A stretch of 64,000 bases of DNA from Octopus vulgaris (Eukaryota): contig OX597819.1 in the NCBI GenBank assembly GCA_951406725.2, positions 103,602,001-103,666,000 of the forward strand, written 5' to 3'. Shown in pieces: positions 10,260 through 30,539 of this stretch. The translations under genes were made by a program, and so were the position numbers. How positions within the stretch are numbered: position 1 is the first letter of the stretch; each line of letters opens with the position of its first letter. The notes under the pieces are model-generated. The model saw nothing but the letters and a program-made list of their open reading frames with translations. It was not told the origin of the DNA and did no database searches.

Positions 10260-10847
10260 GCACACACACACACACACGTTAGCTTACAATGTCTGTCAAC
10301 AATTGACACTGTCGTATATATTAGCGTGTCTATGTGTCTAAAGAGGAAGTGGGAGTAATAGGCAGAGTAAAGGCTTCAAAGTGAAATGTTAAAATATTGA
10401 GTTTTCTCGAATTTTGTCTTAATTGGGGGTGAAATTGAAAGAAATTTTGTATGGCATGAACCAATGGAATTTCTTGGAAAAATCATAGGTAAAGTCTAAT
10501 TGAAGAAATTGTGTGAGGAGTAAATCATTATGTATTTATATGTTTCTGTTTGCTGCTTTCTTTTTAAATATTACATCTAGTTTCACTTTATTCGTTGCAC
10601 ACTGTGTGTGTGCGTTTGCGTGTGCTGTAAACCAGACTAAGAAAAGCATTTGACATACACACCAGAATGTGAGTTTTCTGTAAATTTTGCTTAATTGGAG
10701 TTTAAATTTTAAAAACTGGACCTGGCATGACCCGATGCATTCTACTCTTAAAAATGCTAGGTAAATTGTAATTGAAGAAATCCTATATTGTAGATTTCTA
10801 TAAGTTACAAAGGGAGGCAGATAAAATCTGCCTTTTATAATAAGAGA
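10155..10847 (-). mobile_element. Non-autonomous Helitron-like element
   Basis: On the minus strand: 5' A|TCTCTTATTATAAAAGG, 3' imperfect hairpin GGACGACC..GGTCATCC then CTAG at 10155-10158. Confidence 0.6.
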
Positions 10848-10940
10848 TATATATATAATTCCAAGAGAGTTAGAAGTTGTGAATCCAACCGACTAAGGGA
10901 TAATATCTACCCAATATACTGCTAGTAGAATACCCGTTTA

Positions 10941-11309
10941 GGATCTTTTCTTTTTGAAAGCCAGATTTTCCTAGTTAACTAAACAATTTGAAACTTCGTA
11001 TACTGGTAGAATGTGTCAAAAGAAAACATAATTGTAAACCAAAATGAAAACGGAATTGTAATTTCTAAGTTTAACGTTGTTTAAAAATTCGAATTTTAAC
11101 CAATGATATTCTTTCTTTCGGCCTCATATTATTTACTGCTTCTCAAAATATTGTTACTGTGACGTAAACAGCTATTTTGTGACGTAGTTAACGTAAACAT
11201 GTAAATAGCTAACTAAAATGTAAACATCTCCGCTTATCATAAACTTCGTGGAGTATATATAAAATTTGTGTAGATCCTAAATAGCTACACACACATGTAT
11301 ACAAACATA

Positions 11310-11354
<45 letters not shown>

Positions 11355-12029
11355 CTATACACACATATTCTAATGCATATGCATATATGTGAATATATTT
11401 ATAATGTGTGTGTATTATAAATGCATACATTATATATATATAAAAGATGTTTACATACAATATATATATGTTATATACATCTACATGTATATGTATGTAT
11501 GAATATATAAGTACCACAGAATTTGAATCAAACTGTTTTGATCCATACATACACCCACACACACACACCAACACTACCATCCATGAGACATCCTAACATA
11601 ATCAATGCTACTACTACTATCATCATCATTATCATCATCATCCACTGCCGCCACCACCACCACCACCACCTCTACAAAAACACCAACACTATAATTGCTG
11701 CCATCATACACATCCACTGTCACCACTACCACCACTGCCATGATAACCACATCTACCACAGCTGTTTGCTTACTGCTTACCCACTCACAAAATAGCTATC
11801 TACGTCACATTAACACTATGCAGCTAATAATTTCAAATGAAAACAGACAATATGAATGGTTAAAATTCGCAGATTTAAACTACGTTTAAACTTATAAAAT
11901 ATATTTTTGTCAAAAAAACTAGTTGAAATTATTGTTTTCTTTTGACACATTCTACCAGTATACGAAGTTTCAAATTATTTAGTGAACTAGAAAAATCTGA
12001 AAAATCTGGCTTTCAAAAAGAAAAGATCC
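10941..12029. mobile_element. Non-autonomous long-TIR (foldback) DNA transposon with GGATCTTTTC termini
   Basis: GGATCTTTTCTTTTTGAAAGCCAGATTTT at 10941 and its reverse complement ending at 12029. Imperfect inverted homology extends about 240 bp. Confidence 0.85.
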
Positions 12030-12140
12030 GGGTTTGGGTTTTAAGGTTAGGGTTTTAGAGCTAGGTTTTATGGTTAGGGTTTTAGAGTTAGGGTTAGGTT
12101 TGGGGTTTTAGGGTTAGGGTTGGGATTTAGGATTAGAGTT
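12030..12140 (+). repeat. Degenerate (TTAGGG)n-like tract
   Basis: GGTTAGGG, GGTTTTAG and GGTTTGGG variants directly after a TIR tip. Confidence 0.7.
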
Positions 12141-12623
12141 ACGGAAACAAGCGAGAAATGAAGAAATTGGAGGTGGAGGGGTAGGGGCAAACATTTTTTT
12201 TCCGAAAATAGTTGCTGAAATCAGGAAATTGCCGAAGAAGGACTTTCACTTTTTCATGAGCGGCTATCGAAAACGCTGGGGTTTTAATTTGACAAAAGAA
12301 AATACAAAAATGGTGGGCTTTTATGCACATATGTACTAATGGATATCATATATATGTACAAAATGAAACTTGAGATTTCGAAAGAAATTGTGATGTGTGC
12401 CACTATTTTCCTTTTCACATCAAATTCCAATATAATCTGAAAAGTATTTATAGCAAATTTCATTAAAAAATACCCAAGTTATGAGGAAACAAAGTCAACT
12501 CATGTGAATTTCCCGAAACCCCTCTTCCTAACCACAGAATCTTTTTAAATATCAAATTCCTATGTAAGCGAAATATACACAATCTAAAACATACCGTAAA
12601 TCCTCAAGTATAATCCGCATTAT

Positions 12624-13265
12624 TTAGCGTGTGGTATCTACGAATAGTAGTACCCTCAATATAATATAAATGAATATTTTCAAAGAGGAAGAATTTACGG
12701 ATTTTTTCTCTTACGAGGTTTTTCACGCTGACTACTGATAATTTCTTTTAAAGATTTTATCCTCAATTGTTAATTTATATTTTTCACCGGAATAGTTCAA
12801 TACTGAATTTTTATTCCGACTAGACAATTTGTTACCGAAATGCATTGCGAATAAGCCCGCCATTTTCATAGATATGTAAAGATAAACATTCGTACATGCT
12901 ACGACGAATTCTACGGTTGGCTATCGAGCTTGTAATGTTATGTTTTTTCTTATATTTCTTGAGTTTGTTGCATTGATGAACATGAAATGCATATTCTGCA
13001 TTAAATGCGAAATCACATGTGATATGTAACTGAATTCTTTTTTAAAATGATGTGTTTTGAAGTTTTGCATTCGGTAAAATTTTGTTTATTTTTAGTAGTT
13101 TTGACCGCATTGGTCCCTCTTAGCGTGTGGTATCTACGAATAGTAGTACTCTCAATATAATATAAATGAATATTTTCAAAGAGGAAGAATTTACGGATTT
13201 TTTCTCTTACGAGGTTTTTCACGCTGACTACTGATAATTTCTTTTAAAGATTTTATCCTCAATTG

Positions 13266-13270
<5 letters not shown>
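12624..13270. repeat. ~150-bp near-identical direct repeat (12624-12774 and 13120-13270)
   Basis: TTAGCGTGTGGTATCTACGAATAGTAGTA...GATTTTATCCTCAATTGTTAAT occurs twice, about 496 bp apart. Confidence 0.9.
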
Positions 13271-13323
<53 letters not shown>

Positions 13324-13325
<2 letters not shown>

Positions 13326-13553
13326 CGTAGGAGTGACTGTGTGACAAGAAGTTTGCTGCCTGGTCACTAGGTCAAATAGATTTGGAAGATGGAAACTGAA
13401 AAAAACCCGTCGTATATACGTGTTTGTGGGCCGGAGGGGGCTAGCTTCGTGCTTGTCCAAGACAACCGCTTGTTGACTTCCTTTCCATCCCCGCAACTTA
13501 GAAGTTCGACGAAATTAACCGATAGAATATGTCGAATGACTGAGACAAGTAAA
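13324..13553 (+). mobile_element. tRNA-derived SINE family A, internally deleted and diverged
   Basis: GGCGTAGGAGTGACTGTGTG head, GGAAACTGAAA..CCCGTCGTATATA core and AATGACTGAGACAAGTAAA tail match the other family-A copies. Confidence 0.75.
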
Positions 13554-13788
13554 TGTTTTTTTAGATATATCGTAGTAATATCTAATGTAGTTGTGGTTTA
13601 CGACCAGTCAGGACGTTACCATTGGTTTCACACTTTTTATACTCTTAGCAATATAGACGTCTCCCACTGCTAAGAACGTAAAAGGCGCGAAAGCAATGGT
13701 GACTCCCTGACAAGCCATACCAGCCACATAGTTTCGGGTTCATTCACACTGCGTGGCACCTTAGAACCTAGATTCAAAATTCTACCAG

Positions 13789-13834
13789 AACACCTGATGA
13801 AGGCTGGAGAGTAAATCAGCCGAAATTTTGTGGT
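13789..13834 (+). ncRNA. Minimal type-I hammerhead ribozyme motif (PLE-type)
   Basis: AACAC-CTGATGA-A-GGCTG(10 nt)CAGCC-GAAA-tttt-GTGGT: intact CUGANGA and GAAA core, 5-bp stem II, stem I with one mismatch. Confidence 0.6.
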
Positions 13835-14647
13835 AGCAACAAACAAGACGAGGACAAATATCCGTCCAATGTAAAAAATGTAAATATTGTACAGAATTCC
13901 TCATCTCTAAAATATAGAGCAATTTATGATTGTTTCAAAAATTCCATGTTGACTTAATCTTGCATCGTGTTTTTAAACGACTCCACAATTAATGATGTAG
14001 TCATATCCGTTGTACAGATACCCCGTTCATAGAAATGATCCCTCGCAACTCTCTACAAAAAATAATATGCTGAAGTGTTTGTCTACCGCTTAAATATAGT
14101 ACATTAATCAATGTTTATAGTGGACGGCACAGCGGTCACGTTTATAAACATGATTGAAGATAAGTTAAAATGAATTTGTAGAAATAATTGTAAACTATGA
14201 AACAAAAATAATAACGCAAACTCCACTCTTCAGTGTTTATCATTTTATACTCAACAATAATTTGTGGGTTACCAGCTTATTGGGAGTCTTTTCCCCATTT
14301 AGTCATTGTCCGTAGAAGCACTTCTTCCCTAGGCAAGCGCCTGGATTATTTTATCCCAAGTCTCCTGTAATATACCTCCCTGCGCGCGCGACCGAGTGTG
14401 GGTGTGTTCAACTGACACAGTCGTTAACTTGGGTTATTTATTTCGCCTCTTTGCTTTGTGAGTTCAAATCACGCCTAAGTTAACTTCATCTTCATATTCT
14501 CAAAATAACAATACAGAGAAGATTCGTGGAATCTAGTAGTATCTAGCAGTATCTATTTCGGATCCCTATATTCTGAGTTCAAATCCCACCTACTATCAGC
14601 GGAAAAATAAAAGGGTCCTTCTTAGAAGAAAATCCGTTGGTAAATGT

Positions 14648-15030
14648 TGGAAGCACTCCGTCGGTTATGACGATGAGGGTTCCGGTTGATCCGATCAACG
14701 GAACAGCCTGCTCGTGAAATTAACGAGTAAGTGGCTGAGCACTCCAGAGACACGTGTACCCTTAACGTAGTTCTCGGGGATATTCAGCGTGACACAGAGA
14801 GTGACAAGGTCGGCCCTTTGAAATACAGGTACAACTGAAACAGGAAGTAAGAGTGAGAGAAAGTTGTGGCGAAAGAGTACAGCAGGGATCACCACCATCC
14901 CCTGCCGGAGCCTCGTGAAGCTTTAGGTGTTTTCGCTCAATAAACACTCACAACGCCCGGTCTGGGAATCGAAACCGCGATCCTATGACCGCGAGTCCGC
15001 TGCCCTAACCACTGGGCCATTGTGCCTCCA
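14648..15030 (-). mobile_element. tRNA-derived SINE family C, full length
   Basis: Minus-strand head GGAGGCACAATGGCCCAGTGGTTAGG (A box) and GGTTTCGATTCCC (B box). Near-identical copies at 16349 and 18582. Confidence 0.9.
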
Positions 15031-15473
15031 CTTATAGAACTGTAATACATATGTAATGTAAAGGATAGCTCCTCTCTGAATACCTCATTTGTGGATATTT
15101 CATCTTTAATTATCTCGTCTATGGATATCCCATATGTGGATATTTCGTATGGGGGTATCTCTCTTGGTAATATCTCTTTTCTGTACGATATCTCTTTTCT
15201 GTACGATGTTATATAGACATCTATGAGATATCTCCCACGCATTTGTTTTTGTAGCGGAAATGAATCGTAATGATGATACGAGTACGAATATAGATAGCGT
15301 GAAACTTGGAGTTACTAATTTTAAAAAATGTGTATGCGTGCGCACTCGAGTGCGTGCAAACGAAAGCATATATGTATGTATATGTGTATATATGTATGTA
15401 TGGATGGATGGATGTGTGTGTGTGTGTGTGAGTGTGTATATGAGTGTGTGACTACCTAGACAGACAGACAGAC

Positions 15474-15516
<43 letters not shown>

Positions 15517-15517
15517 C

Positions 15518-15561
<44 letters not shown>

Positions 15562-15764
15562 TTCTTTATTAGCCACACAGGGCGGAACACAGAGGGGACA
15601 AAATACAATGTAGAGCTTTTCTTTTCGGTGAAAAAAAGAGAAAAATAAAATTCTGATCAAAAGGGAGCGTAAGACAAAAAAAAAAGACAGACAGACAGAT
15701 AGACAGACGGCCGGACAGATAGATAGACAGACAGACAGAGAGACAGACAGACAGACAGAGAGAC

Positions 15765-15843
<79 letters not shown>

Positions 15844-16059
15844 AGGTCGATGCAGGGAGGATCACCACCGTAAATATAAGCCACACACAAATATTCGCAA
15901 CAACCGCACACATAAAGAGAAGAAAGAAGGGAAAAGAAGTAACTCCTGGGCGACGTAAATTCAATAACAACAATAACAATAATTTCATAAAGTATGCACG
16001 TCAGCGGCACATATCATAAAGTATGGGTGCCAGCGGCACATATCATAAAGTATGGACGT

Positions 16060-16348
16060 CAGGATCTCTTTAACATCGATCCTTTCTCAGCCAGACATAA
16101 TCTGCACTTTCTGCTGCTATTAAAGTACGCTTTACATTTCTCTAGAATCCTCCACTTTATGTTATTCTTGGTGACGCTGTCTTTCAACGACCATACGTGC
16201 TTGGCCAGGGTTGTGGAATTACATCTCTCCTAGATGCTGAAGGACTTGTGGTTGTTATAGCAGGGTCTGAAGGGGCCTTCAGTTGCTCCAATGTACTTTC
16301 GCACGTTTGGTTGTCTATTTAATCCTATTGCTGTTACCTTTACCTCGA
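16060..16348 (-). pseudogene. Penelope-like GIY-YIG endonuclease remnant
   Basis: Minus-strand translation: RKYIGATEGPF..YNNHKSF..NSTTLAKHVWSLK..IKWRILEKCKAY..KCRLCLAEK, with one stop. Confidence 0.85.
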
Positions 16349-16732
16349 TGGAAGCACTCCGTCGGTTACGACGGCGAGGGTTCCGGTTGATCCGAATCAA
16401 CGGAACAGCCTGCTCGTGAAATTAACGTGTAAGTGGCTGAGCACTCCACAGACACGCGTACCCTTAACGCAGTTCTCGGGGATATTCAGCGTGACACAGA
16501 GAGTGAGAAGGCCGGCCCTTTGAAATACAGGTACAACAGAAACAGGAAGTAAGAGTGAGAGAAAGTTGTGGCGAAAGAGTACAGAAGGGATCACCACCAT
16601 CCCCTGCCGGGGCCTCGTGGAGCTTTAGGTGTTTTCGCTCAATAAACACTCATAACGCCCGGTCTGGGAACCGAAACCGCGATCCTATGACCGCGAGTCC
16701 GCTGCCCTAACCACTGGGCCATTGCGCCTCCA
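16349..16732 (-). mobile_element. tRNA-derived SINE family C, full length
   Basis: Same sequence as 14648-15030. Confidence 0.9.
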
Positions 16733-16916
16733 CTCTCAGAAATGACAGCTTGCATCAATAGGCAATGAAATCTAGTTTCTATGCAACGATTAGTAATCTT
16801 GTGGTTGTTGATTAGTGTTCCTGCTGCTGCTGCTGTTGTTAGTAGTAATAGTCATAATCATTGTTCGACCGTGGTCGAGACAATGGAATTTACTATGTTA
16901 CACACACACATACATA

Positions 16917-17827
16917 CAAGTGTCTTCTGCTATAGCCCTGGGCCGACCAATGCCTTGTGAGTGGATTTGATAGACGGAAACTGAAAGAAGCCCGTCGTAT
17001 ATATGTATATATATATGTATGTGTGTGTATATGTTTGTGCGTCTGTGTTTGTCCCCCTAGCATTGCTTGACAACCGATGCTGGTGTGTTTACGTCCCCGA
17101 CAATTAGCGGTTCGGCAAAAGAGACCGATAGAATAAGTACTAGGCTGACAAAGAATAAGTCCTGGGGTCGATTTGCTCGACTAAATGCGGTGCTCCAGCA
17201 TGGCCGCAGTCAAATGACTGAAACAAGTAAAAAGAGTAAAGAGTAAAGAGTAAGCTATTAAGACGAAATCAATCAGTATGAAGGGATTGTGCGATCAGGG
17301 GACATGGTTCCAGGTTCATTCCTACTGCGTGGCACCTTGGGCAAGTGTCTTTTACTATAGCCTCGGGCCGATCAAAGCCTTGTGAGTGGATATAGTAGAT
17401 GGAAACTGAAAGAATCCCGTCGTATATATGTATATATAAATAGGCATAGGAGTGGCTGTGTGGTAACTAGCTTGCTTACCAACCACATGGTTCCAGGTTC
17501 ACTCCTACTGCGTGGCACCTTGGGCAAGTGTCTTTTACTATAACCTCGGGCCGATCAAAGCCTTGTGAGTGGATTTAGTAGACGGAAACTGAAAGAAGCC
17601 CGTCGTATATATTTTTATATATATGTATGTGTGAGTATATGTTTGTCCTCCCAACATCATTTCACATGCTGGTGTGTTTACGTCCCCGTAACTTAGCGAT
17701 TCGGCAAAAGAGACCGATAGAATAAGTACTAGGCTGACAAAGAATAAGTCCTGGGGTCGATTTGCTCGACTAAATGCGGTGCTCCAGCATGGCCACAGTC
17801 AAATGACTGAAACAAGTAAAAGAGTAA
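16917..17827 (+). mobile_element. Cluster of three SINE family A copies (16917-17252 headless, ~17292-17430 partial, 17443-17827 full)
   Basis: A box TGGCTGTGTGG, B box GGTTCACTCC, CORE-like CCTTGGGCAAGTG, internal (TA/TG)n and AGTAAA-type tail. Confidence 0.9.
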
Positions 17828-17909
17828 ACTGACATCTGACTGTTCAAAGAACACTTCAAAAGTTATTAGTAGCGGTGTCTCTTGAAAATAGACAAAGTTT
17901 GATGTCGTG

Positions 17910-18320
17910 GAGTAAAGATTATTTGCCAACATAACATGGCAGTCCTGGTTTAGGATGAATGTTGCTGTAATTTAGCCCCAGGAGACATCGTCTGTGTCCT
18001 TATATTTTCGAACAAGGGAATCTAGCACCCCCCCCCCCCACTCAGCTCAAAACAATATCTGTGTATCGCGAATTTGGCAGCGCCACCTCTAGCCGAGCAA
18101 TTATTCTGTGCTAATGAAGGGAAATAACCCGGAAATCGCAATACACAGATATTGCTTTGAGCTGAGTGGCGGGGGTGGTGCTAGATTCCCTTGTTCGAAA
18201 ATATAAGGGCACAGATCGTGTCATATAGCCAGCTGGAGACGATGTCTCCTGGTGCTAAATTACAGCAACATTCGTCCTAAACTAGGACTGCCATGTTATG
18301 TTGGCAAATGATTTTTATTC
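17910..18320. repeat. Foldback element: ~160-185 bp inverted arms around a hammerhead-like centre
   Basis: TTTGCCAACATAACATGGCAGTCC... at about 17922 mirrors ...GGACTGCCATGTTATGTTGGCAAA ending at about 18308. The left arm has a ~24-nt deletion. Confidence 0.9.
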
Positions 18321-18375
18321 CTAAGTACTGTTGCTGAATATCTCTCGTTGTGAGATTTACAAATAGTAATTTTCT

Positions 18376-18580
18376 AATTTGGTGTCTTGCTGTTGACAAT
18401 TACCGGCAGAAAAAGAGTTTAGCCTCAAACAACACTCATGCTGTCATGGTTGCTACATTAGGGGATGATGCTCTAGTTTTATCAACAGTGTAAAAATGGG
18501 CAGCTAAATTTAGGAGGAGAAGGAAAAGTCTGGGAGATGATCCAGCTTCTGGACGTCCTGAAACTGCCTCCACTGAGGAC
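18376..18580 (+). pseudogene. Mariner transposase N-terminal HTH remnant
   Basis: MVATLGDDALVLSTV*KWAAKFRRRRKSLGDDPASGRP (mariner W...F..G..SLED..RSGRP motif), truncated by a SINE. Confidence 0.8.
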
Positions 18581-18581
18581 A

Positions 18582-18966
18582 TGGAAGCACTCTGTCGGTT
18601 ACGACGATGAGGGTTCCGGTTGATCCGAATCAACGGAACAGCCTGCTCGTGAAATTAACGTGTAAGTGGCTGAGCACTCCACAGACACGCGTACCCTTAA
18701 CGCAGTTCTCGGGGATATTCAGCGTGACACAGAGAGTGACAAGGCCGGCTCCTTGAAATACAGGTACAACAGAAACAGGAAGTAAGAGTGAGAGAAAGTT
18801 GTGGTGAAAGAGTACAGAAGGGATCACCACCATCCCCTGCCGGAGCCTCGTGGAGCTTTTAGGTGTTTTCGCTCAATAAACACTCACAACGCCCGGTCTG
18901 GGAATCGAAACCGCGACCCTACGACCGCGAGTCCGCTGCCCTAACCACTGGGCCATTGCGCCTCCA
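18582..18966 (-). mobile_element. tRNA-derived SINE family C, full length
   Basis: Same sequence as 14648-15030. Confidence 0.9.
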
Positions 18967-19030
18967 CGTTCCCTACATACTGATGGATGGCAGATGATTG
19001 ACAAAAAATCAAAATATCCAATGCTATTCG

Positions 19031-19062
19031 TATTAGGTTGGTGCATAATTATTGCGGCTTTT
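19031..19062 (+). mobile_element. Solo mariner-type TIR
   Basis: TA|TTAGGTTGGTGCATAATTATTGCGG resembles the Hsmar1/MADE1-type TIR. Confidence 0.6.
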
Positions 19063-19131
19063 TTTTTTTCAATAAATTTTAGTCAACAAAAAATTTAAAC
19101 AAAACGCTAAGCAGAAATAGAAGTTGATGAT

Positions 19132-19922
19132 GAAGGCAGCGAGCTGGCAGAAACGTTAGCATGCCAGGCGAAATGCTTGGCGGTATTTCGTCTGCCGTTA
19201 TGTTCTGAGTTCAAGTTCCGCCGAGGTCGACTTTGCCTTTCATCCTTTCAGGGTCGATAAATTAAGTACCAGTTACGCACTGGGGTCGATGTAACCGACT
19301 TAATCTCCTTGTCTGTCCTCTCTGTGTTTAGCTCCTTGTAGGTAGTAAAGAAATAGGTATTTCGTCTGCCGTTATGTTCTGAGTTCAAATTCCGCCACGG
19401 TCGACTTTGCCTTTCATCCTTTTAGGGGCCGATTAAATAAGTACCAGTTACGCACTGAGGTCGATATAATCGACTTAATCCGTTTGTTTATCCTTATTTG
19501 TCCTCTCTGTGTTTAGCCCCTTGTGGGTAGTAAAGAAATAGGTATTTCGTCTGCCGCTACGTTCTGAGTTCATCTTCCGCCGAGGTCGACTTTGCCTTTC
19601 ATCCTTTCGGGGTCGATTAAATAAGTACCAGTTACGCACTGGAGTCGATGTAATCGACCTAATCCCTTTGTCTGTCCCTGTTTGTCCCCCTCTATGTTTA
19701 GTCCCATGTGGGCGATAAAGAAATCAGAAACGTTAGCATGCTGAGCGAAATGCTTAGCGGTATTTTGTCTGTCTATGGGTTCTCAGTTCAAATTCCGCCA
19801 AGGTCTATTTTGCTTTTCATCCTTTCGGGGTCGAAAACTTAAGTACCAGTTGTGTACTGGGGTCGATCTAATCGACTGGCCCCCTCCCACAACATTTCGG
19901 GCTTTGTACCTCGAGTAGAAAA
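19132..19922 (+). mobile_element. tRNA-derived SINE family B, tandem array of about 4 body units
   Basis: Head GAAGGCAGCGAGCTGGCAGAAACGTTAGC. GTTCTGAGTTCAAATTCCGCC...AAGTACCAGTT repeats at about 19200, 19375, 19560 and 19780. Confidence 0.9.
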
Positions 19923-19948
19923 TATTCTATGTCGTACTTAATTTCACT

Positions 19949-20070
19949 AAGAACTATGTTAAGAGTACACGGGTCTGTGGAGTACTCAGCCACTTGCATG
20001 TTAATTTCACGAGCCGTCTGTTCCGTTGATCGGATCAACTGGCACCCTCTTCGTCATAACCGATGGAATG
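19949..20070 (+). mobile_element. Diverged 3' fragment of SINE family C
   Basis: AGAACTATGTTAAG..CTCAGCCACTT..GTTAATTTCACGAGC..TTCCGTTGATCGGATCAAC matches the family-C tail. Confidence 0.75.
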
Positions 20071-20099
20071 CTAGTTACACACACGCACACACACACACA

Positions 20100-20150
<51 letters not shown>

Positions 20151-21208
20151 ATCGTAAAAATGTCTGGTCTGAAAAGAAGGCGTTTAAACCGGATGTATCC
20201 TAGGAACAAGAAATCTCATAGGAGCATCGTCTCTACCAACAGCATCAATGGCGATATTGCTGAGGGTGTGGTAGTAAACTGAGCCCACATCATCATCTTT
20301 AACATGTCTCACAGCTAGAACCTTTTACTAAATATTTTATCCAATCATTTATCGCCAGAATTGCAGCTTCTACATGGGATCACATTCTCATCAGACATTA
20401 ATTTACACAAGTTGAAAAAAGATATCATCTACATTCATATTAACAGTTTAGGAAAGCCTGCAGATGTTCTCTTGCTCGCAATTTATATTCATACAAATAA
20501 GAATGTCTAACAAAGGTACATAGCCAAAAATTTTATAGGAGGAAATAATGTCAACTATATTGACCCACTCCTTATCTAGTGTTTTCTTTCATTGCCCACA
20601 AAAAAAGAGAAATGTGAAGTGTGTTGACAATGCTAACTAACCCTTTCATGACTTAAATTCTGATAGGTAAACTGTTTCATTAAATCTCTAGGTCCAGTTT
20701 AGCATACAGTAAACGTGGCCATTTACAATTTAGTATGCTATCTGTTGCCAATTCTAGACCATAGCTCTAACCCTAACATAAACCATAACAAGGCATAGTC
20801 TACATAGTTACAAGCAGATAGACACTCTACTGACCTTCTCACCTTTATCTCATAATTTTGTTGATCCAAACACCTGATTAATAATTAAAGAAAGTAGCTA
20901 TTTTACTAAGACTGTTCAAATTGATTATGTGTATTTCATTGGGAACATGACTATAAAAGAACTTAGCATCAAATTTGATTTCAACTTACATTTTCCACAG
21001 CTATTCTAACAACAGTGTAACAATACTTCTGTAACCTCTCAGAGGAAACATGACTCCTCATTCACTCCTCTCCACCCTTCATTTAAGGTTTAAGAATAAT
21101 TCTATAATTGTTGTAAACTGGAATGGAACTTACTCTCTTTCTGCTCACATCCATTCTCCATTTAATGCTGCTTGGTTTGCATCTTTTAGAGATATAGATT
21201 AGATATAA

Positions 21209-21601
21209 CTAGCAGTATCGCCCGGCGTTGCTCGGGTTTGTAAGGGAAATAACTATATAAGCATTTTTAGAGAGTTATAGCAAAAAAATAGCAAAAAAAT
21301 GCATTAAAAATGGAAAAAAATGATGGTAAGTTTTTTTTTAAATCGTTGACTCATCGTAGACATTTTTAGAGAGTTACTTCCCTTATATAATAGCAAAAAA
21401 ATGCATTAAAATGGAAAAAATTATGGTAATTTTTTTAAATCGTAGACTCATCGTAGACACGCGCTAATACCCAGAAGGGCTCGATATGAATCACGACTAT
21501 AAGATACCCGGTTTTGGTTAAACTGCACCGCAAAATGTGGGAGTAGTTAGGAATCTAAATCGTAGGAGACAGACACACAACCTCTCTTTTATATATAAAG
21601 A
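21209..21601 (-). mobile_element. Short non-autonomous Helitron (same family as 8312-9147)
   Basis: A|TC...hairpin CCCGAGCAACGCCGGG...CTAG|T, with an internal duplication. Confidence 0.9.
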
Positions 21602-21639
21602 TAAACTCAAAGAGCAACTAGAAAGTGAAAGTTGTATCT

Positions 21640-23624
21640 AACTTAGGATGTCTCATAGATAGTGGTGGCAATGGTGTTGGAGGTGGTAGATGTGGTTATC
21701 ATGGCAGTGGTGGTTGTTGTGTAGTGGTGACAGTGGATGTGTATGATGGCAGCAATTATAGTGTTGGTGTTTTTGTAGAGGTGGTGGTGGTGGCGGCGGC
21801 AGTGGATGATAATGATGATGATGATGATAGTAGTAGTAGTAGTAGCATTGATTATGTTAGGATGTCTCATGGATGGTAGTGTTGAAGACATTGCAGAGTG
21901 TAGTGGTGGTGAAATTGGTGATTTTGAATATGATGCTGGTATTGATCTTGGGGTTGTGGTGGTGGCATTGGAGGTTGTAGTAATGGTTGTAGTGGTGGTT
22001 GTGAAGATGATTCTGATATTGATAGTCTTTGCATTGAGGTAGTGGCAGAGTCAGAGTAAATAATAAGAGCCCAGTTAACACAAGATTCTTAAATTTCGGA
22101 GATCATAAGATAGGGAGCAAGAAGTTAAAAGTTCCAATACTGGCCCAATACCTACACCCCAGATTCTTCAACTATTTTATAAGAAAGGGGTTAATGGCAG
22201 GATAGGGATTCAGCTTTAACATAAATTGTATAACAAAAAATACATAAATAAATTACTGCTCCGACGATGTAATTTTAGTATGTGTGTATGTATGTATGTG
22301 TGTGTGTGTGTGTAAGCAATGCAAACAATGGAAAATAATTTAAACACTCATTTTCTGATGTCTAAGGATGGATATTTATGCGTATGAATCTTTTTCTTTT
22401 TATTTTCTTTCAAATATAATTCTAGGGAACTGAAAAAGCTGTGTACGATGCCAAGCGAATTTAGCTATTTACGATGAGCGGATGTTTATGTTACAAACGA
22501 ATCTGTAGGTCTGTTTACATGTTTACGTTAACTACGTCACAAAATAGCTGTTTACGTCACAGTAACAATATTTTGAGAGGCAGTAAATAATATGAGGTCG
22601 AAAGAAAGAATACCATTGGTTAAAATTCGAATTATTAAACAACGTTAAACTTAGAAATTACAATTCCGTTTTCATTTTGGTTTACAATTATGTTTTCTTT
22701 TGACACATTCTACCAGTATACGAAGTTTCAAATTGTTTAGTTAACTAGGAAAATCTGGCCTTCAAACTGCAAAGATCCAGTGTTTAGTTACAAAAAGTTA
22801 CGATAAGCGGATGTTTGATCTGATGTTTACATTTTCACAAAATAGCTGTCTACGTCACAGTTAACACTATGCAGCGAATAATTTCAGATCAATACAGACA
22901 ACATGATTGGTTAAAATTCGCAGATTTAATCTACGATTAATGTCATAAAATAGATTTTTCTCAAATAAACAAGTTGGAACTAGTGTTTTGTTTTGAGACA
23001 CTCTACCAGTACACGAAGTTTCAAATTATTTAGTTAACTAGAAAGATCTGACGTCCAGGCGACGAAAATGAAAAGATCCTAAACACTTTCAAACTTCGTG
23101 GAGTAGTCTTCCGCTTATCGTAACTTTTTGTAACTAAACACTTTCAAACTTCGTGGAGTAGTCTGAGTATATATAAAATTAGTGCTTTAATTATTTTCCA
23201 TTGTTTGCATGTAAATATCCGCTTATCGTAAACAACTAAATTCGCTTGGCATCGTACACAGCTTTTTCAGTTCCCTAGAATTATATTTGAAACAAAATAA
23301 AAAGAAAAAGATTCATACGCATAAATATCCATCCTTAGACATCAGAAAGATTAGAAATGCAACAAAAATTTAAAATACCGTATCTTTACCTTTCAAACTT
23401 CGTGGAGTATATATAAAATTTGTGTAGATCCTGAGTATATATAAAATGAGTGTTTAAATTATTTTCCATTGTTTGCATTGGTTATGCATATATTTATTTT
23501 ATACACACACACACACATGTATACAAACATATGCATATATATATATACACCTATATACACATATTCTAATGCATATGCATATATGTGTACATATTTATAA
23601 TGTGTGTGTATTATAAATGCATAC

Positions 23625-23690
<66 letters not shown>

Positions 23691-24335
23691 GTTTACATAC
23701 AATATATATATATATATGTTATATACATCTACATGTATATTTATGTATGAATATATAAGTACCACAGAATTTGAATCAAACTGTTTTGATCCATACATAC
23801 ATACATACACACACACATATATACATACACACATACTAAAATTATATCGTTGGAGCAGTAATTTATTTATGTATTTTTTGTTATACAATTTATTTTTAAG
23901 CTGAATCCCTATCATTAACCCCTTTCTTATAAAATAGTTGAAGAATCTGGGGTGTAGGAATTGGGCCAGTATTGGAACTTTTAACTTCTTGCTCTCTATC
24001 TTATGATCTCCGAAATTTAAGAATCTTGTGGATGATGATGATAATGATGATGATAGAAGTAGTGGAATTGATTATGTTAGGATGTCTCAGTAGTGGTTGT
24101 GAAGATGATTCTGATATTGATAGTCTTTGCATTGAGGTGGTGGCAGAGTCAGAGTAAATAATAAGAGCCCAGTTAACACAAGATTCTTAAATTTCGGAGA
24201 TCATAAGATAGAGAGCAAGAAGTTAAAAGTTCCAATACTGTCCCAATTCCTACACCCCAGATTCTTCAACTATTTTATAAGAAACGGGTTAATGGCAGGT
24301 TGTATACCAAAAAATACATAAAGAAATTACTGTTT
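21640..24335. mobile_element. Rearranged copies of the GGATC-TIR foldback transposon (TIR tips at 22778 and 23079)
   Basis: 22515-22778 is the near-identical inverse of 10941-11205. 21640-21885 inverts 11570-11760. 23395-23830 repeats 11245-11560. 22036-22300 is inverted at 23810-24030 and repeated directly at 24090-24330. Confidence 0.85.
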
Positions 24336-24515
24336 TATTCTTTGACAACACGTGTTTCATGAGGTACATCCTCGGGTTCCTAAACCACACCTTGTTTCCC
24401 TGGAACCCCTCTCAAGATGCCACCCCAATCATCAAACCCTGTTAGTGTGTGTGAAGAGACAGAGAGAGTAATGTGTGAAAGAGAGAGATAACTGAAATGT
24501 TTTTACTCGGTGTAT

Positions 24516-27091
24516 CATCATCAACATCATCATCATCATCATCATCATCATCGTTTAACGTCCGTTTTCCTTGCTAGCATGGGTTGGACGGTTCAACCGG
24601 GATCTGGGAAGCCAGAAGGCTGCACCAGGCTCCAGTCTGATCTGGCAGTGTTTCTACAGCTGGATGCCCTTCATAATGCCAACCACTCCGTGAGTGTAGT
24701 GGGTACTTTTTACGTGCCACTGGCACAGGTGGCAGAGGGGTCTGGCATCGGACACGATCGGTTGGTGCTTTTTATGTGCCACCGGCACAGAAGCCATTCG
24801 AGGCGGGGTTGGCATCGGTCACGTTCGGATGGTGCTTTTTTATGTGCCACCGGCACAGAAGCCAGTCGAGGCGGCACTGGCAATGGCCACTGGTGCCAGA
24901 GGGGTCTGGCATCGGCCACGATCGGTTGGTGCTTTTTATGTGCCACCGGCACAGAAGCCAGTCGAGGCGGTGCTGGCATCGGCCACGTTGGGATGGTGCT
25001 TTTTATGTGTCACCGGCACAGGTATCACAACTACTGTTTCCATTGATATTTGGTTTGATGTTCATGTACATGCACTTGACTCAACAGGTCTCCTCAAGCA
25101 CAGCGAGATGTTCCGGGATCCAAGGTACTTTGAATGGGCAGGGGGTATGCGGAACTGGTGCCGGAAGCATCTCGGGTCTTAGTAGTCACAGTACATCTCC
25201 AGAGATCTCGGTCCTTCGCCATTGCCTCAGTGAGGCCCAACGCTCTGAGGTCATGCTTGCCTACCTCATCCCATGTCTTCCTGGGTCTACCTCTCCCCCT
25301 GATTCCTTCAACTGTTCGGGAGTGGCACTTCTTCACACATCTCTCCTCATCCATCCGCAGTACATGACCATACCATCGCAAGCGTCGCTCTTGCACACCG
25401 CATCTGATGCTTCTTATGCCTAGCATTTCTCTCAGGGTGCTTACACTCTGTCGTGCATTCACACTGACATTACACATCCAGCGGATCATGCTAGCTTCAG
25501 TTCTTTCAAGTCTACGCATGTCCTCTGCAGTCACGGCCCATGTTTCACTGCCGTGAAGCATGGCAGTTCGCACACATGCATCATACAATCTACATTTCAC
25601 TCTGAGTGAGAGACCCTTTGTCGCCAGTAGGGGTAGGAGCTTTCTAAACTTTGCCCAGGCTATTCGTGTTCTAGTGGTGACACTCTCTGAGCATCCACCC
25701 CCACTACTAACTTGGTCACGCAGGTAGCGGAAAATATCAACTACTTCTAGTTTCTCTCCCTGGAGTGTGATGGAATCTGTTTTCTGAGTATCTGTGGTGT
25801 CTATTGTCCCTGTGCATCTGCCGCACATGAAAGCTATCTTATCTGTTAATTTCCCTTTAATGTTGCTGCACCTCTTGTGCGTCCATAGCTTACATTGGGT
25901 GCATCTTATGGAGTTTCTACCTACACCTTTCCTACAGCTCGAGCAGGGCCACCTGCCCGATGGGGTGTGTGCTGAGTTCGCCTTTCTGCATACTATAACT
26001 TTGGTCTTCGCTACATTTACTCTAAGGCCCTTTGATTCTAACCCTTGTTTCCACACCCGAAATTTCTTTTTTAGTTCCGGTAGTGATTCTGCTATGAGGG
26101 CCAGGTCACCAGCATAGAGGAGCTCCCAGGGGCAACCTGTTTTGAATTCCTCTGTTATTGCCTGGAGGACTATGATGAATAAAAGGGGACTGAGGGCTGA
26201 GCCCTGGTCTACACCTACTTCTACCCGGAATTCTTCACTATATTCGTTGCCAATCCTAACCTTGCTGACAGCCTCTCTGTATAGAGCCTGTACATCCCTT
26301 ATTAGCCATTCGTCAATCAACAGTTTCCGCATCGACCACCAGATAAGGGATCGGGGAACCCTGTCAAAGGCTTTCTCCAAGTCCACAAAAGCTATTTCGA
26401 GGGGTTTATCTTTAGCTAGGTACTTCTCCTGCAGTTGTCGGACCAGGAATATAGCATCAGTGGTGCTTCTACCCAGCACAAAACCGAACTGCATCTCATC
26501 TAAGCAAATTCTCTCCCTAATGAGATGGGTTATGACCCTCTCTGTGGCCTTCATCACCTGATCCAACAGTTTAATACCCCTGTAGTTATTTCTATCTAGA
26601 GCATCACCCACCCTTGTAGCAGTTGACTATGGTGCTGCTACGCCAGTCATTGGGTATGACTCTATTATGAACTACCTGGTTAACAATACGGGTGACTAGG
26701 CCATAGCCCGCATAACCAGCTGTTTTAAGCATCTCAGCAGTGATACCTGATGGGCCGGGGACTTTACCTGGTTTCATATCCTTAATTGCCTTAACTACGA
26801 GGGAGCTGTCTATTTGGATAGCTGGTCCCTCTACTGGGTCAACATTTGGCAGGCCCTCCTCCTCCCATTCATTCTCCACATTCAGCAGTCTTTCATAATG
26901 GCTTCTCCAAGCCTCTTTCTTTTCACCAACATTAAAAGCAAGTGCCCCATCATCCATGCGGACACATTTCTCTCCTGTAACATCACTATTTTCTCTCACA
27001 CACTGTCTATCAATACGAAATACCTCAGTTCTTTGGTCCTCACGTCGCTGGACATTGGCAAACTTCTTCTTTTCTGCTATATCTTTGGCTA
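24516..27091 (-). mobile_element. 5'-truncated RTE-clade LINE with (GAT)n tail
   Basis: RT ORFs 26604-26999 and 25094-26611 (frameshifted) contain NYRGIKLL, QFGF, FVDLEKAFDRVPR, QGSALSPLLF, LLYAGD and RRLRWYGHVLRM..GRGRPRKTW. The 3' UTR has ~60-bp tandem repeats. Candidate TSD TGTAT at 24511 and 27092. Confidence 0.95.
25094..26999 (-). pseudogene. RTE reverse transcriptase (frameshift near 26610, catalytic YADD changed to YAGD)
   Basis: RT motifs as above. A Cys/His-rich PHD-like insert reads WPCSSC..CTQCKLWTHKRC..CGRC. Confidence 0.92.
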
Positions 27092-27101
27092 TGTATATGT
27101 G

Positions 27102-27133
<32 letters not shown>

Positions 27134-27550
27134 TGTATGTATGTATGTATGTATGTATGCATGTATGTGTGTGTGTATGTATGTGTATGTATGTGTGTTT
27201 GTGTATGTATTTGTGTGTATGTGTGTGTATGTGTGTGTGTGTGTATGTATGTATGTATGGCCGATTCAGTGTTTACATTATTTCGAGTTAAAACGAAAGA
27301 TTGCCAAAAAAAATTTTGTTTATATCTTCGATCACTGTCATTATTCCATTGAGTCAACCTCATTATTTTCTACATAGCAAAGGTAATCTTTCGTTTTAAC
27401 TCGAAATAATGTAAACACTGAATCGGCCATACATACATACACACACACACATACATACACACACATACATACACACACACACATACATAGATACATACAC
27501 ACACACATACATACATATACACATACACCGAGTAAAAAATTTCATTTATC
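27092..27550. repeat. Inverted repeat including microsatellite arms
   Basis: GGCCGATTCAGTGTTTACATTATTTCGAGTTAAAACGAAAGATT (~27259) is inverted at about 27385-27428. The flanking (TATG)n and (CATA)n also mirror. Confidence 0.85.
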
Positions 27551-27734
27551 ACGGAAAGGTCTACTACAAACGAAAGATTGTCAAAGATAAAAAGTTACAG
27601 AAATAAAAGTTACACGAATAAAGTAAGGATTAAAAATCACAAAAAATATACGAAAATTTACAAAAACTAAGTTAGTTATATAATATATAAGTTTAATATA
27701 TAAGTTAGTTAATAATATATAAAAAATTTCAGTT

Positions 27735-28005
27735 GTGTTTACATTTAACATGTATGTTTAGTACGTCACCAAATTGGTGGTCATGTCTATTGAGACGGAG
27801 TAAATAATATCAAGCCGAAAGACCGAATACTATTGGTTAAAATTCTAATTATTAAACAATGTTAAACTTAGAAGTTACAATTCCGTTTTCATTCTGGTTT
27901 ACAATTAAGTTTACTTTTGACACATTCTACCAGTATACGAAGTTTCAAATTGTTTGGTTCAGTAGGAAAAATTTGAAAAAACAGGCGACGAAAATGAAAA
28001 GATCC
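27735..28005. mobile_element. Diverged right-facing end of the GGATC-TIR transposon
   Basis: Homologous to 22515-22778 and ends ...GAAAATGAAAAGATCC. Confidence 0.85.
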
Positions 28006-28779
28006 CCCGTTTATTAATACACAAGTGTCTGTTCATTGCATGGCATTTACATTACCGAGTGTAATGAATGGATATGGGTAAAAAGTTATTTTACCCTTAA
28101 TTTATACAGCAATAAGTAAATGGAGGGGATCAAGAGGCGGTATTCACCAACGTTTAGATATTATACTATGTCTATTTATTTATTTTTTAAAAAGACAATT
28201 ATAACAATATAGATACATGTATAACATATTATGCTTTACATATATAATACATAATATATAAAAATACCAGTAATTATTAAAATATATAACGTAGAGCATA
28301 GAAAGTAGGATAATATCTTATAGCTTTTCAGCCAAGAGGCCATAGTACTCCATTCTATTTTTTATTCCTCCAGTGAACTGAAGTATTTGGTAGATAAGAT
28401 TAAGGTACTTGGGTGTGTCTCTGAGCTTCGTCAGAGAGTTTAGAAAGTTCATAGAGTTACACTATAAATATAGATACGTACATTTATACATACTTCTGCA
28501 TATACATACATATACATAAATATACATAAACACATATACATATATTTAAATGTATATGCATATGTATAGGCATACAAAGGAATCAATTATTATTATTAGG
28601 TTATTATATATTATTCTTATTAGAGAAAATATAAACAGAGGTAAGAGAAAGTTATTAAAAGAGAAATAATAGTGCAATTTAAATGTATCTTAAGATACAT
28701 TATTGTAGTTATGTAGGAATGAAAAATTCTATATATGAGGAATACATACATATATATATACATATACATACACACACAT

Positions 28780-28818
<39 letters not shown>

Positions 28819-30539
28819 CTTATATATTTACGTAGAAACATACCCATTGGTACATACGTATTACATGTGTTGAAAAGGGAGTATTATTGCAGCAGTTCGC
28901 ATTATTCTTTTTATATAATTTTAATATTTATACACAAAAACATATATATTCATATAAACATGTGATATGTTTTCTACTGAGGGCTTTTGACAAAAGTCCA
29001 CAATAAGTGGGTTATAGTTTATATTAATACCTGTGATATTAGTTGGTACTACGAGTAATAAATTTCCAGGTATTAATCAATATGCTTTATCATTTTCCGT
29101 TGTTTTTTTGTTTATCGAGTAGCTGAAATCCTGCGGGAAGTGGGGAGAGTGTTTTGTTCAGTCCCGTAAGCTAATTGGTCATCTATTGTTTTGAAAGGCC
29201 ATGACTTTGTTATGGTTGGTTAATGGATAACCGATAACTTAAAACAAATTAGGTAAATATATATATACATATATATAAATTTATATAAATAAAACAAAAG
29301 CAAAATGTAGATGAATTCATATATGTATATATGAATTTTAGGTTAAAGTGATATTACTAAGGGGATATATATTTAATATACTGCATATGAAATATGTTAT
29401 AACAAATTTATTAAAAAAAAAACGGTATATAATATTCCATGTATCTGTTTAATTAGGGGAATCATTTATATATTTACTAACTCGTATGGGTAATATATGG
29501 TTTAAAATATATGTTGGAATTTATTCGGACCAACTTCAATTAAGGGACAAAATATCAAATGTGACTGTAAAATTTGTTCCACTAGGTTGTCATTTATCGT
29601 TAAAATTATGCTTAAAAGGTATTCTCCGATAAAGTGCATTAATTGCAATTCTCCATGCAACAGTGTTTAGTTACTAAATTAATGAACCAACTCAATATAT
29701 ATCTTTATATATTCTCTCCACATGAGCCAACTCAATATATATTCTCTTATATATATATACCTACATATTACTAAATTGTTGTTATTTATCGCTACAGTTA
29801 TGTTTAAAATCTATTTTATCTGACAAAATGTCTCAAATGCGAGACTCCATGTAGTAGTGTTAAGTCACTTAATTAATAAAACAATCAGTCATTCAGTTCT
29901 TTATAATATCTTCCCTCCTATTTATTCAGATAATTACTTTTAATGTTATATGTAAGAGGTGTGGTGGTGGTGGTGGTGAGTTTAGTTATAAATAGAACAA
30001 AGGTAGGTGACTCTGGTTTAATTAGGTCTATAATTATAAAACAATATACTCAAAAATTTAGGTTCATTATTCAGCCAATCAATCAACTTATCAATCAGCC
30101 AACTAATTAATTAATTAATTCATTAATTAATCAATGTATTGGTTCTGTAATGGGGTTGCATATCAATGTCTGTATCCAAATACGTACATATGCATATACA
30201 ATACTTATATATATATTTACAACCATATATATATACACAACCATATATATATATATATACAAACATATATACACCTATACACATACATATATATATACAC
30301 ATACACATGTATATACCCACACACATATAAGGTACCAGCAGAAAAAAAAACAAATACATATCTATCTAAACCTATATATATATATATATGCATACATAAA
30401 TATATATATATCTGCATAATTATCACATATTATATAATACAATACAGTATAGCAACAATAATAATTCGAATATTGATTATTTATCACAATATATTTCAAC
30501 AATGGAAAATTTTTATCCATCACGCTAAGTACCATTAAA

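What the first reader, a model, noticed from the sequence alone, without database searches (positions are those of the whole stretch)
10933..28013. 17-kb composite DNA transposon defined by an exact 8-bp target-site duplication
Seen: CCCGTTTA|GGATCTTTTC at 10933-10950 and GAAAAGATCC|CCCGTTTA at 27996-28013. The window has five TIR tips of this family (10941, 12029, 22778, 23079, 28005), and the nearest pair, 10941/12029, has no TSD. Both outer ends carry the same subterminal type. Known: an 8-bp TSD with GG termini fits Merlin best, with Mutator/foldback as an alternative. Inference: non-autonomous ends cooperated to move or insert a large block of unrelated genomic DNA, now containing SINEs, a Helitron, PLE and mariner debris and an RTE LINE. 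Some of that cargo may have inserted later. No transposase is encoded inside.
Basis: partly seen in the sequence, partly recalled or inferred. Interest (0 to 1): 0.72.

Follow-up and report, generated by a model that had tools for sequence, protein, structure and literature searches.

The report
Two giant transposons fused, then inserted
This 17-kb insertion is two large non-coding jumping elements of one Merlin-linked family joined end to end, likely welded by a misfired transposase reaction that flipped 301 bases and left a mirror-image 8-base scar, and probably moved afterwards or beforehand as one piece; its contents are shared with other copies of the family rather than freshly captured host DNA.

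Summary
The 8-bp duplication is real. Uninterrupted copies of the flanking older repeat hold one 8-bp slot (24 of 38 loci), so 10941-28005 is one insertion site. The cargo reading is wrong: 88% of the block lies colinearly in other members of a family of 6-27 kb non-autonomous elements with 8-bp TSDs. The block is a Type I element (10941-22778) fused to an internally deleted Type II element (22779-28005). The first 301 bp of the Type II left end are inverted. Both inversion breakpoints are exact TIR tips followed by one 8-mer in opposite orientation (AGTGTTTA / TAAACACT): the signature described for reversed-ends transposition in maize. The junction is unique in the genome. The family TIR sits about 500 bp ahead of a broken Merlin (PF12762) transposase at two loci. 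Most likely: reversed-ends fusion plus macrotransposition by the outer ends (0.65); assembly in place is not excluded. Read data neither confirmed nor refuted the junction. The scan had noted small Merlin-like MITEs in this genome before, not this family or this junction.

The parts
10847..10932 (+). Left part of an older dispersed repeat that was split by the insertion
   Evidence: Contiguous with 28014 onward in 24 of 38 paralogous loci
10933..10940 (+). Outer TSD, left copy (CCCGTTTA)
10941..22778 (+). Type I large non-autonomous element (11.8 kb), a deletion derivative of longer copies such as a 27,355-bp copy with TSD CAAGTTTA
   Evidence: Colinear with A_C9, A_C10, C4x and others, 90-98% identity
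10941..11208 (+). Type I left TIR arm
   Evidence: 99-100% identical over 270 bp in the 40 scored of 1255 candidates; 97% inverted match to 22511-22778
10941..12029 (+). Core 1.1-kb MITE inside the Type I left end; free-standing copies elsewhere have their own 8-bp TSDs
   Evidence: L003, L005, L006, L022
11785..12029 (-). Internal TIR arm; 94% identical over 245 bp to the TIR ahead of a Merlin transposase pseudogene in L351
12030..12625 (+). Inherited Type I interior starting with a degenerate TTAGGG-like run
   Evidence: Same continuation in 20 other scored copies
12624..13276 (+). Young repeat with 157-bp direct repeats, private to this copy, standing where paralogs have several kb of other interior
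13269..22778 (+). Inherited Type I interior (SINEs, simple repeats, Helitron-like piece at 21366-21602) and right end
   Evidence: 17436-22778 is 96% identical to A_C9; further blocks
22511..22778 (-). Type I right TIR arm, now internal; tip has one substitution at position 9
22779..22786 (-). Internal TSD, inverted copy (AGTGTTTA = reverse complement of TAAACACT), directly after tip 22778
22779..23079 (-). Inverted first 301 bp of the Type II left end, ending in its TIR tip at 23079
   Evidence: Inverted relative to C30, C49, R_C2, C8a and others; un-inverted it aligns colinearly to C30/C49 apart from a 1-bp gap and one 67-bp insert
23080..23087 (+). Internal TSD, direct copy (TAAACACT), directly after tip 23079
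23110..23164 (+). Second unit of a private 55-bp tandem duplication (first unit is split by the inversion)
23110..24030 (+). Rest of the Type II left end
   Evidence: 99% to C30/C49 over 23110-23500; 92% over 23110-24030
24028..24030 (+). Junction of an internal deletion (about 6.6 kb relative to C8a) with 3-bp microhomology GTG
24028..28005 (+). Type II right part, inherited
   Evidence: 94% to R_C15 over 4 kb
25097..27272 (-). LINE fragment with reverse transcriptase, inherited with the Type II element
27790..28005 (-). Type II right TIR arm; first 24 bases identical to tip 23079, the same pair of tips as in R_C15
28006..28013 (+). Outer TSD, right copy (CCCGTTTA)
28014..29717 (+). Right part of the split host repeat
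   Evidence: 81% to L265 over 28006-29717

Best explanation
The block is a fusion of two large non-autonomous elements of one Merlin-linked TIR family, likely joined by reversed-ends transposition and likely moved as one 17-kb (or larger) macrotransposon by its two outer ends. Shown: two parent element types, an inverted 301-bp Type II left end, exact tips at both breakpoints, an inverted 8-bp duplication there, and a direct 8-bp duplication at the outer ends in a split host repeat. Inferred: a Type I element lay just left of a Type II element in the same orientation; a transposase supplied in trans paired the facing ends (Type I right tip, Type II left tip), dropped the DNA between them and inserted both tips at TAAACACT about 290 bp inside Type II, which flips the intervening piece; a second reaction using the Type I left tip and the Type II right tip made the CCCGTTTA duplication. 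The order of the two reactions is not resolved.
For: Inverted 8-mer directly after tips 22778 and 23079: 1 of 17 same-orientation tip pairs tested in about 967 kb shows this, the window's; chance per pair about 3e-5. Un-inverting restores a normal Type II left end (92-99% to C30/C49). Tips 23079 and 28005 share 24 identical bases and are the tip pair of the intact 18.1-kb element R_C15; tips 10941 and 22778 are the usual Type I pair. The layout matches the reversed-ends inversion model in PMC8225341 (passages read: loss of the inter-element DNA, inversion from one end to the target, 8-bp TSD at both breakpoints). Size is no obstacle: 13 of 19 large copies (6.2-27.4 kb) have exact 8-bp TSDs. 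Mixed ends work: A_C8 (17.4 kb) has a 10941-type and a 23079-type tip with an exact TSD. Facing ends occur: 920 bp apart at A_C10. Ac macrotransposons of 10.3 and 28 kb move or excise (PMC9910405 passages). Merlin link.
Against: No donor or sister copy of the fusion exists in this assembly: both internal junction patterns occur once, and none of the 19 large copies has a Type I left end with a Type II right end. So movement of the fused unit rests only on the outer TSD, which the in-place rival explains as well. A private 55-bp tandem duplication at the target must be assumed to predate or accompany the event. The inverted piece is 6.6% from its nearest full-length match among the 19 while its neighbour is 0.8% from C30, so the direct parent was not sampled. 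No intact partner transposase was found; the TIR-linked Merlin genes have stops. 2 of 19 large copies have no TSD and 2 have two mismatches.
Confidence: 0.65

Rival explanations
1. Built in place: a Type II element inserted here first and made the outer TSD; a Type I element later inserted into its left end at TAAACACT in the opposite orientation; the 12.1-kb piece between the Type II left tip and the Type I left tip was then flipped (cut at both tips and re-joined, or a three-ended reaction).
For: Gives the same sequence letter for letter. Tips 23079 and 28005 are a matched Type II pair. No second copy of the fusion exists.
Against: Needs two clean tip-to-flank joins without a new TSD or footprint. 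Homologous recombination between the arms is excluded beyond the first 10 bases, because each arm is of one type from base 11 on. No such flip is described in the passages read.
Confidence: 0.17
2. Double insertion at one target: Type I and Type II inserted one after the other at the same CCCGTTTA, then reversed-ends transposition removed the 8-bp spacer and fused them in place.
For: Explains the outer TSD and the internal scar without moving 17 kb.
Against: The family shows little target preference: the commonest of 155 distinct tip flanks occurs 3 times and is an internal sequence. No tandem pair sharing a TSD was seen in the fetched loci.
Confidence: 0.08
3. Gap-repair or template-switch chimera: an element excised or broke here and repair copied pieces from two different family members, as described for single-copy Pack-TIRs.
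For: Family interiors are mosaic and internally deleted; PMC8277862 abstract reports gap filling for single-copy Pack-TIRs.
Against: Repair gives no reason for both breakpoints to fall exactly on TIR tips with an 8-bp inverted overlap.
Confidence: 0.06
4. Assembly error joining two elements.
For: No public contig bridged 22778/22779 in 4 runs.
Against: That test cannot show absence (filtered short contigs, possibly other individuals). An error would not be expected to create an exact inverted TSD at two tips or to rejoin the two halves of one host repeat.
Confidence: 0.04

Closest known systems
Maize Ac/fAc reversed-ends transposition (RET) inversions (PMC8225341, passages read) and Ac macrotransposons (PMC9910405, passages read)
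   Same: Two same-orientation elements, facing ends used together, inter-element DNA lost, inversion from one end to the target, 8-bp TSD at both breakpoints; outer ends defining a larger mobile unit.
   Different: hAT superfamily in plants, seen as fresh mutations; here a Merlin-linked family in an animal, read from a fixed sequence, with the target inside one of the two elements and only 301 bp inverted.
Merlin superfamily (PMC8101967, passages read)
   Same: 5'-GG termini, 8-bp (rarely 9-bp) TSD, long TIR arms within the 24-462 bp range, DDE_Tnp_IS1595 transposase next to the same TIR at other loci.
   Different: This copy encodes no transposase; the family's copies reach 6-27 kb and carry nested internal tips; the passages read do not describe such large non-autonomous or composite copies.
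Multicopy Pack-TIRs of animals (PMC8277862, abstract read) and the Drosophila foldback-flanked composite TE (PMC6431247, passage read)
   Same: TIR ends carrying kilobases of other DNA and moved in trans.
   Different: The interior here is debris of other repeats shared among family copies; no host gene fragment was found in the window block; the unit comes from two whole elements, not from filling one.
VANDAL21 alternative transposition in Arabidopsis (PMC12312487, passages read)
   Same: Closely spaced same-family elements rearranging at their facing ends.
   Different: Somatic, plant, Mutator-like; TSDs were not fully resolved there.

Membership tests
Merlin superfamily | TIRs begin with 5'-GG | tested here: met
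   All five tips and the tips of 19 large copies begin GGAT
Merlin superfamily | TSD of 8 or 9 bp | tested here: met
   13 of 19 large copies exact 8 bp, 1 with 9 bp inside a CA run, 1 with one mismatch, 2 with two, 2 none; 18 of 27 small tip pairs exact 8 bp, 3 one mismatch, 1 9 bp, 1 two mismatches, 4 are internal tips of larger copies
Merlin superfamily | TIR length 24-462 bp | tested here: met
   Arms of 181-268 bp
Merlin superfamily | DDE_Tnp_IS1595 transposase in the element itself | tested here: not met
   None in the block; it is non-autonomous
Merlin superfamily | DDE_Tnp_IS1595 transposase in a relative with the same TIR | tested here: met
   L351: TIR 94% to 11785-12029, then a Merlin gene with stops about 520 bp in (PF12762 26.6 bits, just under the 27 cut-off for the part before the first stop; genome search scored it over the cut-off). 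L364 has the same layout, colinear at 85-92%. L356 (36.6 bits) has a more distant tip 1 kb 3' of its ORF. No complete element with both TIRs, TSD and an intact ORF was found. Other Merlin families here have unrelated TIRs.
Mutator/MULE | MULE transposase next to the same TIR | tested here: not met
   0 of 30 MULE (PF10551) loci of about 3.3 kb matched the TIR arms; 36 further matches were not cut out
Reversed-ends transposition product | Element tips exactly at both inversion breakpoints | tested here: met
   22778 and 23079
Reversed-ends transposition product | New TSD at the breakpoints, inverted relative to each other | tested here: met
   AGTGTTTA / TAAACACT
Reversed-ends transposition product | Progenitor allele with two facing ends and inter-element DNA | not testable with these tools
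   Only one assembly; public contigs were too short in repeats
Macrotransposon (composite moved by outer ends of two elements) | Outer ends from two different elements share one TSD at a site that is otherwise empty | tested here: met
Macrotransposon (composite moved by outer ends of two elements) | The fused unit is seen at a second site or seen to excise | tested here: inconclusive
   Junctions unique in this assembly by exact pattern; cut-and-paste need not leave a copy
Pack-TIR | Captured non-transposon host sequence between the TIRs | tested here: not met
   88% is family interior; the four gaps are a young repeat, simple repeats, SINE-rich DNA and the inversion; no host Pfam domain. Non-coding host DNA captured long ago by the family is not excluded.

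The most novel reading that the evidence does not exclude
Octopus Merlin ends grow giant non-coding elements (6-27 kb, at least dozens of copies) by repeatedly pairing with neighbouring ends, and this locus is a natural germline fossil of reversed-ends transposition followed by macrotransposition, a route so far shown mainly for plant Ac/Ds; the same reaction aimed at distant targets would be an engine of inversions and translocations in the octopus genome.
Probability: 0.4. Interest if true: 0.68.

Novelty: new variant of a known kind. Interest (0 to 1): 0.5.

Why it matters
Alternative transposition is a proposed source of chromosome rearrangement, but natural, base-exact footprints are mostly from plants. 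Here both scars (inverted internal TSD, direct outer TSD) survive in one 17-kb unit of a Merlin-linked family. It gives a simple, searchable signature (two same-direction tips followed by reverse-complementary 8-mers) to count such events genome-wide. It also shows that repeat annotation which masks the SINEs, LINEs and microsatellites inside these elements one by one will overcount independent insertions, because they were copied together inside 6-27 kb DNA transposons. Three paper searches listed no Merlin or mollusc case of reversed-ends transposition and one no giant non-autonomous Merlin; these were listings of an open-access library, not proof of absence.

Tried and rejected
1. 'Unrelated genomic cargo': rejected. 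2. 'CCCGTTTA is a preferred flank': rejected. 3. MULE partner: 0 of 30 loci. 4. Transposase inside the large copies: 52 representative ORFs from 40 fetched 10-kb stretches gave LINE, Helitron helicase, mariner and weak hits, no Merlin or MULE; a 14-member ORF cluster without Pfam hit looks like a LINE ORF1 zinc-knuckle protein by eye. One large copy (L292) holds a distant Merlin remnant at 33% identity, not counted as evidence. 5. First 30 Merlin loci: TIR hits at 4 of 30 were nested or unlinked copies; the best-conserved Merlin families have other TIRs. 6. Read evidence: Logan contigs are 30-100 bp in these repeats; one search was uninformative (the raw-read run laid nothing) and one search found no contig across 22778/22779 in 4 runs, which is no evidence either way. 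7. Rfam: only sub-threshold miRNA matches to hairpins and simple repeats. 8. IS26-type replicative inversion considered from recall and the listing of PMC4471558: it would leave two inverted copies of one element at the breakpoints; here the tips are of two different elements in the same orientation. 9. PMC2553603 and PMC9339288 (primary macrotransposition papers) were not held. Zisupton/KDZ, hAT and P partners were not searched genome-wide. Supplements were not read for any paper; the repeat library of PMC13282606 could hold consensus sequences of this family.
Full report
Observation. The window lies in G000:C6 of a 2.8-Gb genome; earlier scan notes call it an octopus, which fits SINE motifs that I recall. 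The flanks are two halves of one older repeat: searches with each flank alone gave 38 other loci, and in 24 of them (23 distinct places) the two flanks meet across exactly 8 bases, mostly CCCAATTA and never CCCGTTTA; 10 matched neither flank and 4 matched both without adjacency. Both window copies carry the same derived letters, so they were duplicated from one site. CCCGTTTA is not a favoured flank (2 of 155 distinct tip flanks, both the window's).

The family. The left arm has 1255 candidates genome-wide, the 40 scored all 99-100% identical. Small copies of 1.0-1.4 kb have 8-bp TSDs (18 of 27 tip pairs exact). Many copies continue past the inner tip. I fetched 10-50 kb around such copies and chose 19 large ones in which both ends lay in the fetched DNA; copies whose second end was not reached, a near-duplicate (C49) and small copies were left out. 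The 19 are 6.2-27.4 kb; 13 have an exact 8-bp TSD, one a 9-bp TSD in a CA run, one has one mismatch, two have two, two have none. They fall into Type I (ends like 10941 and 22778), Type II (ends like reverse 23079 and 28005) and hybrids with a Type I left end and an inverted Type II left end (A_C8, exact TSD; the same right end in C3z and C3w). Interiors are a patchwork of LINE, SINE, Helitron, mariner, hAT and satellite debris shared between copies.

The block. 15,039 of 17,065 bp are covered by same-strand hits of at least 600 bp and 90% identity in these 19 copies; the gaps are 12626-13268 (a young repeat), 15033-15684 (simple repeats), 16902-17301 and 22779-23109. Substitution distances to the nearest copy are 0-2.4% for 11 of 12 test segments and 6.6% for the inverted piece. 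With the rate of 0.0036 per million years quoted in PMC13282606 (parts 1-2 of 3 read), that suggests a few million years at most; this is inference. So 10941-22778 is a shortened Type I element and 22779-28005 a Type II element with an internal deletion at a GTG microhomology. Tips 23079 and 28005 share 24 identical bases and are the tip pair of the intact element R_C15.

The internal junction. In Type II copies the left end reads tip, arm, then the sequence of 23110 onward; in the window 22779-23079 is turned round. Tip 22778 is followed by AGTGTTTA and tip 23079 by TAAACACT, its reverse complement. Turned back, the sequence aligns colinearly to C30 and C49 (92-99%) apart from a 1-bp gap and a 67-bp insert made of 12 bases and a private 55-bp tandem duplication. 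Of 17 same-orientation tip pairs in about 967 kb, only this one shows the pattern. The junction pattern occurs once in the genome. PMC8225341 (passages) describes this outcome for reversed-ends transposition: DNA between the facing ends is lost, the piece from one end to the target is inverted, and TSDs flank the termini at the breakpoints.

Mechanism. Most likely (0.65), inferred: a Type I and a Type II element lay in tandem; transposase paired their facing ends and inserted them into the Type II left end; another reaction with the two outer ends placed the compound at CCCGTTTA, before or after. For: sizes up to 27 kb move, mixed tips work, facing ends occur (920 bp apart), and Ac macrotransposons are described (PMC9910405 passages). 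Against: no second copy, no parent allele, the 55-bp duplication has to be assumed. The main rival (0.17) yields the same letters without moving 17 kb: Type II inserted here, Type I nested in its left end, and the tip-bounded 12.1-kb piece flipped cleanly. One genome cannot separate the two.

Superfamily. GG termini, 8-9 bp TSD and arm length fit the Merlin definition in PMC8101967 (passages; it also lists Merlin as abundant in an octopus). I looked at 50 of 150 PF12762 matches with their flanks and 5 more relatives of one of them. At L351 a TIR 94% identical to 11785-12029 is followed about 520 bp later by a Merlin gene with stops; L364 has the same layout. Most other Merlin loci have no such TIR or other TIRs, and no intact partner was found. 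0 of 30 MULE loci carried the TIR. The block works like a non-autonomous Merlin; membership rests on relatives.

Reads. Public contigs were too fragmented; no contig bridged the junction in 4 runs, which shows nothing either way.

Novelty. Each ingredient is known: non-autonomous TIR elements with cargo (PMC8277862 abstract), composite units (PMC6431247 passages), reversed-ends transposition in maize, rice and Arabidopsis. Searches (listings only for most hits) showed no Merlin or mollusc case and no 6-27 kb non-autonomous Merlin; subscription papers and repeat libraries were not searchable. The scan's own notes held small Merlin-like MITEs and a Merlin foldback in this genome and nothing by sequence or by these words. 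Verdict: real, a new variant of a known kind, interest 0.5.

Noticed in passing
window tips 10941/12029 and 23079/28005; R_C15, R_C4, R_C4b, A_C4, A_C3, A_C6b: Within several elements the two tips are identical for 23-39 bases (103 in A_C4) although the arms behind them are of different types and tips differ between elements; this looks like tip-to-tip conversion or repair. Other copies share only 10 bases and still have TSDs.
   Followed up: partly
L324-L327 (G000:C4:74259482-74286836): A 27,355-bp non-autonomous copy with exact TSD CAAGTTTA, the largest seen; colinear with the window's Type I part.
   Followed up: partly
L111-L112 (R_C15), L127 (A_C8), L351: A 114-bp tandem array (about 11 kb in R_C15) is carried inside family elements at three sites, so these elements spread a satellite.
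   Followed up: no
L351:2352-3730, L364: Merlin transposase pseudogene directly behind the family TIR; candidate decayed master element. Relatives with longer open frames at C29 and C21 showed no match to the TIR arms within the 3 kb fetched.
   Followed up: partly
L201, L203 (also L339, L343, L347): Other Merlin families: a 1.6-kb element with GGCAC(A/T)GTCATG TIRs, exact 8-bp TSDs and open frames of 316-320 codons; others with different TIRs.
   Followed up: no
window 12624-13276: Young repeat (99-100% copies) with 157-bp direct repeats; copies occur in tandem and inverted arrangements; here it replaces several kb of Type I interior.
   Followed up: partly
L328-L332 (G000:C3:65582001-65632000): Two Type I left ends facing each other about 44 kb apart, with a large inverted duplication of interior (13269-14647 twice, opposite strands); possibly another rearranged compound; TSD not checked.
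   Followed up: no
L194:8051-8127: Two tips of a related TIR family facing outward 75 bp apart around a palindromic spacer, 630 bp upstream of a 298-codon Merlin frame.
   Followed up: no
window 27146-27527 and 17909-18321: Long imperfect hairpins inside the inherited interiors.
   Followed up: no
window 8391-8993 (-): Helitron-type Pif1 helicase fragment left of the insertion; 8913-9148 matches 21366-21602 inside it at 91%.
   Followed up: partly
L116:1-1359: Open frame with KH and FXMRP1_C domains a few kb outside the R_C4 element; possibly a retrocopy of a fragile-X-related gene.
   Followed up: no
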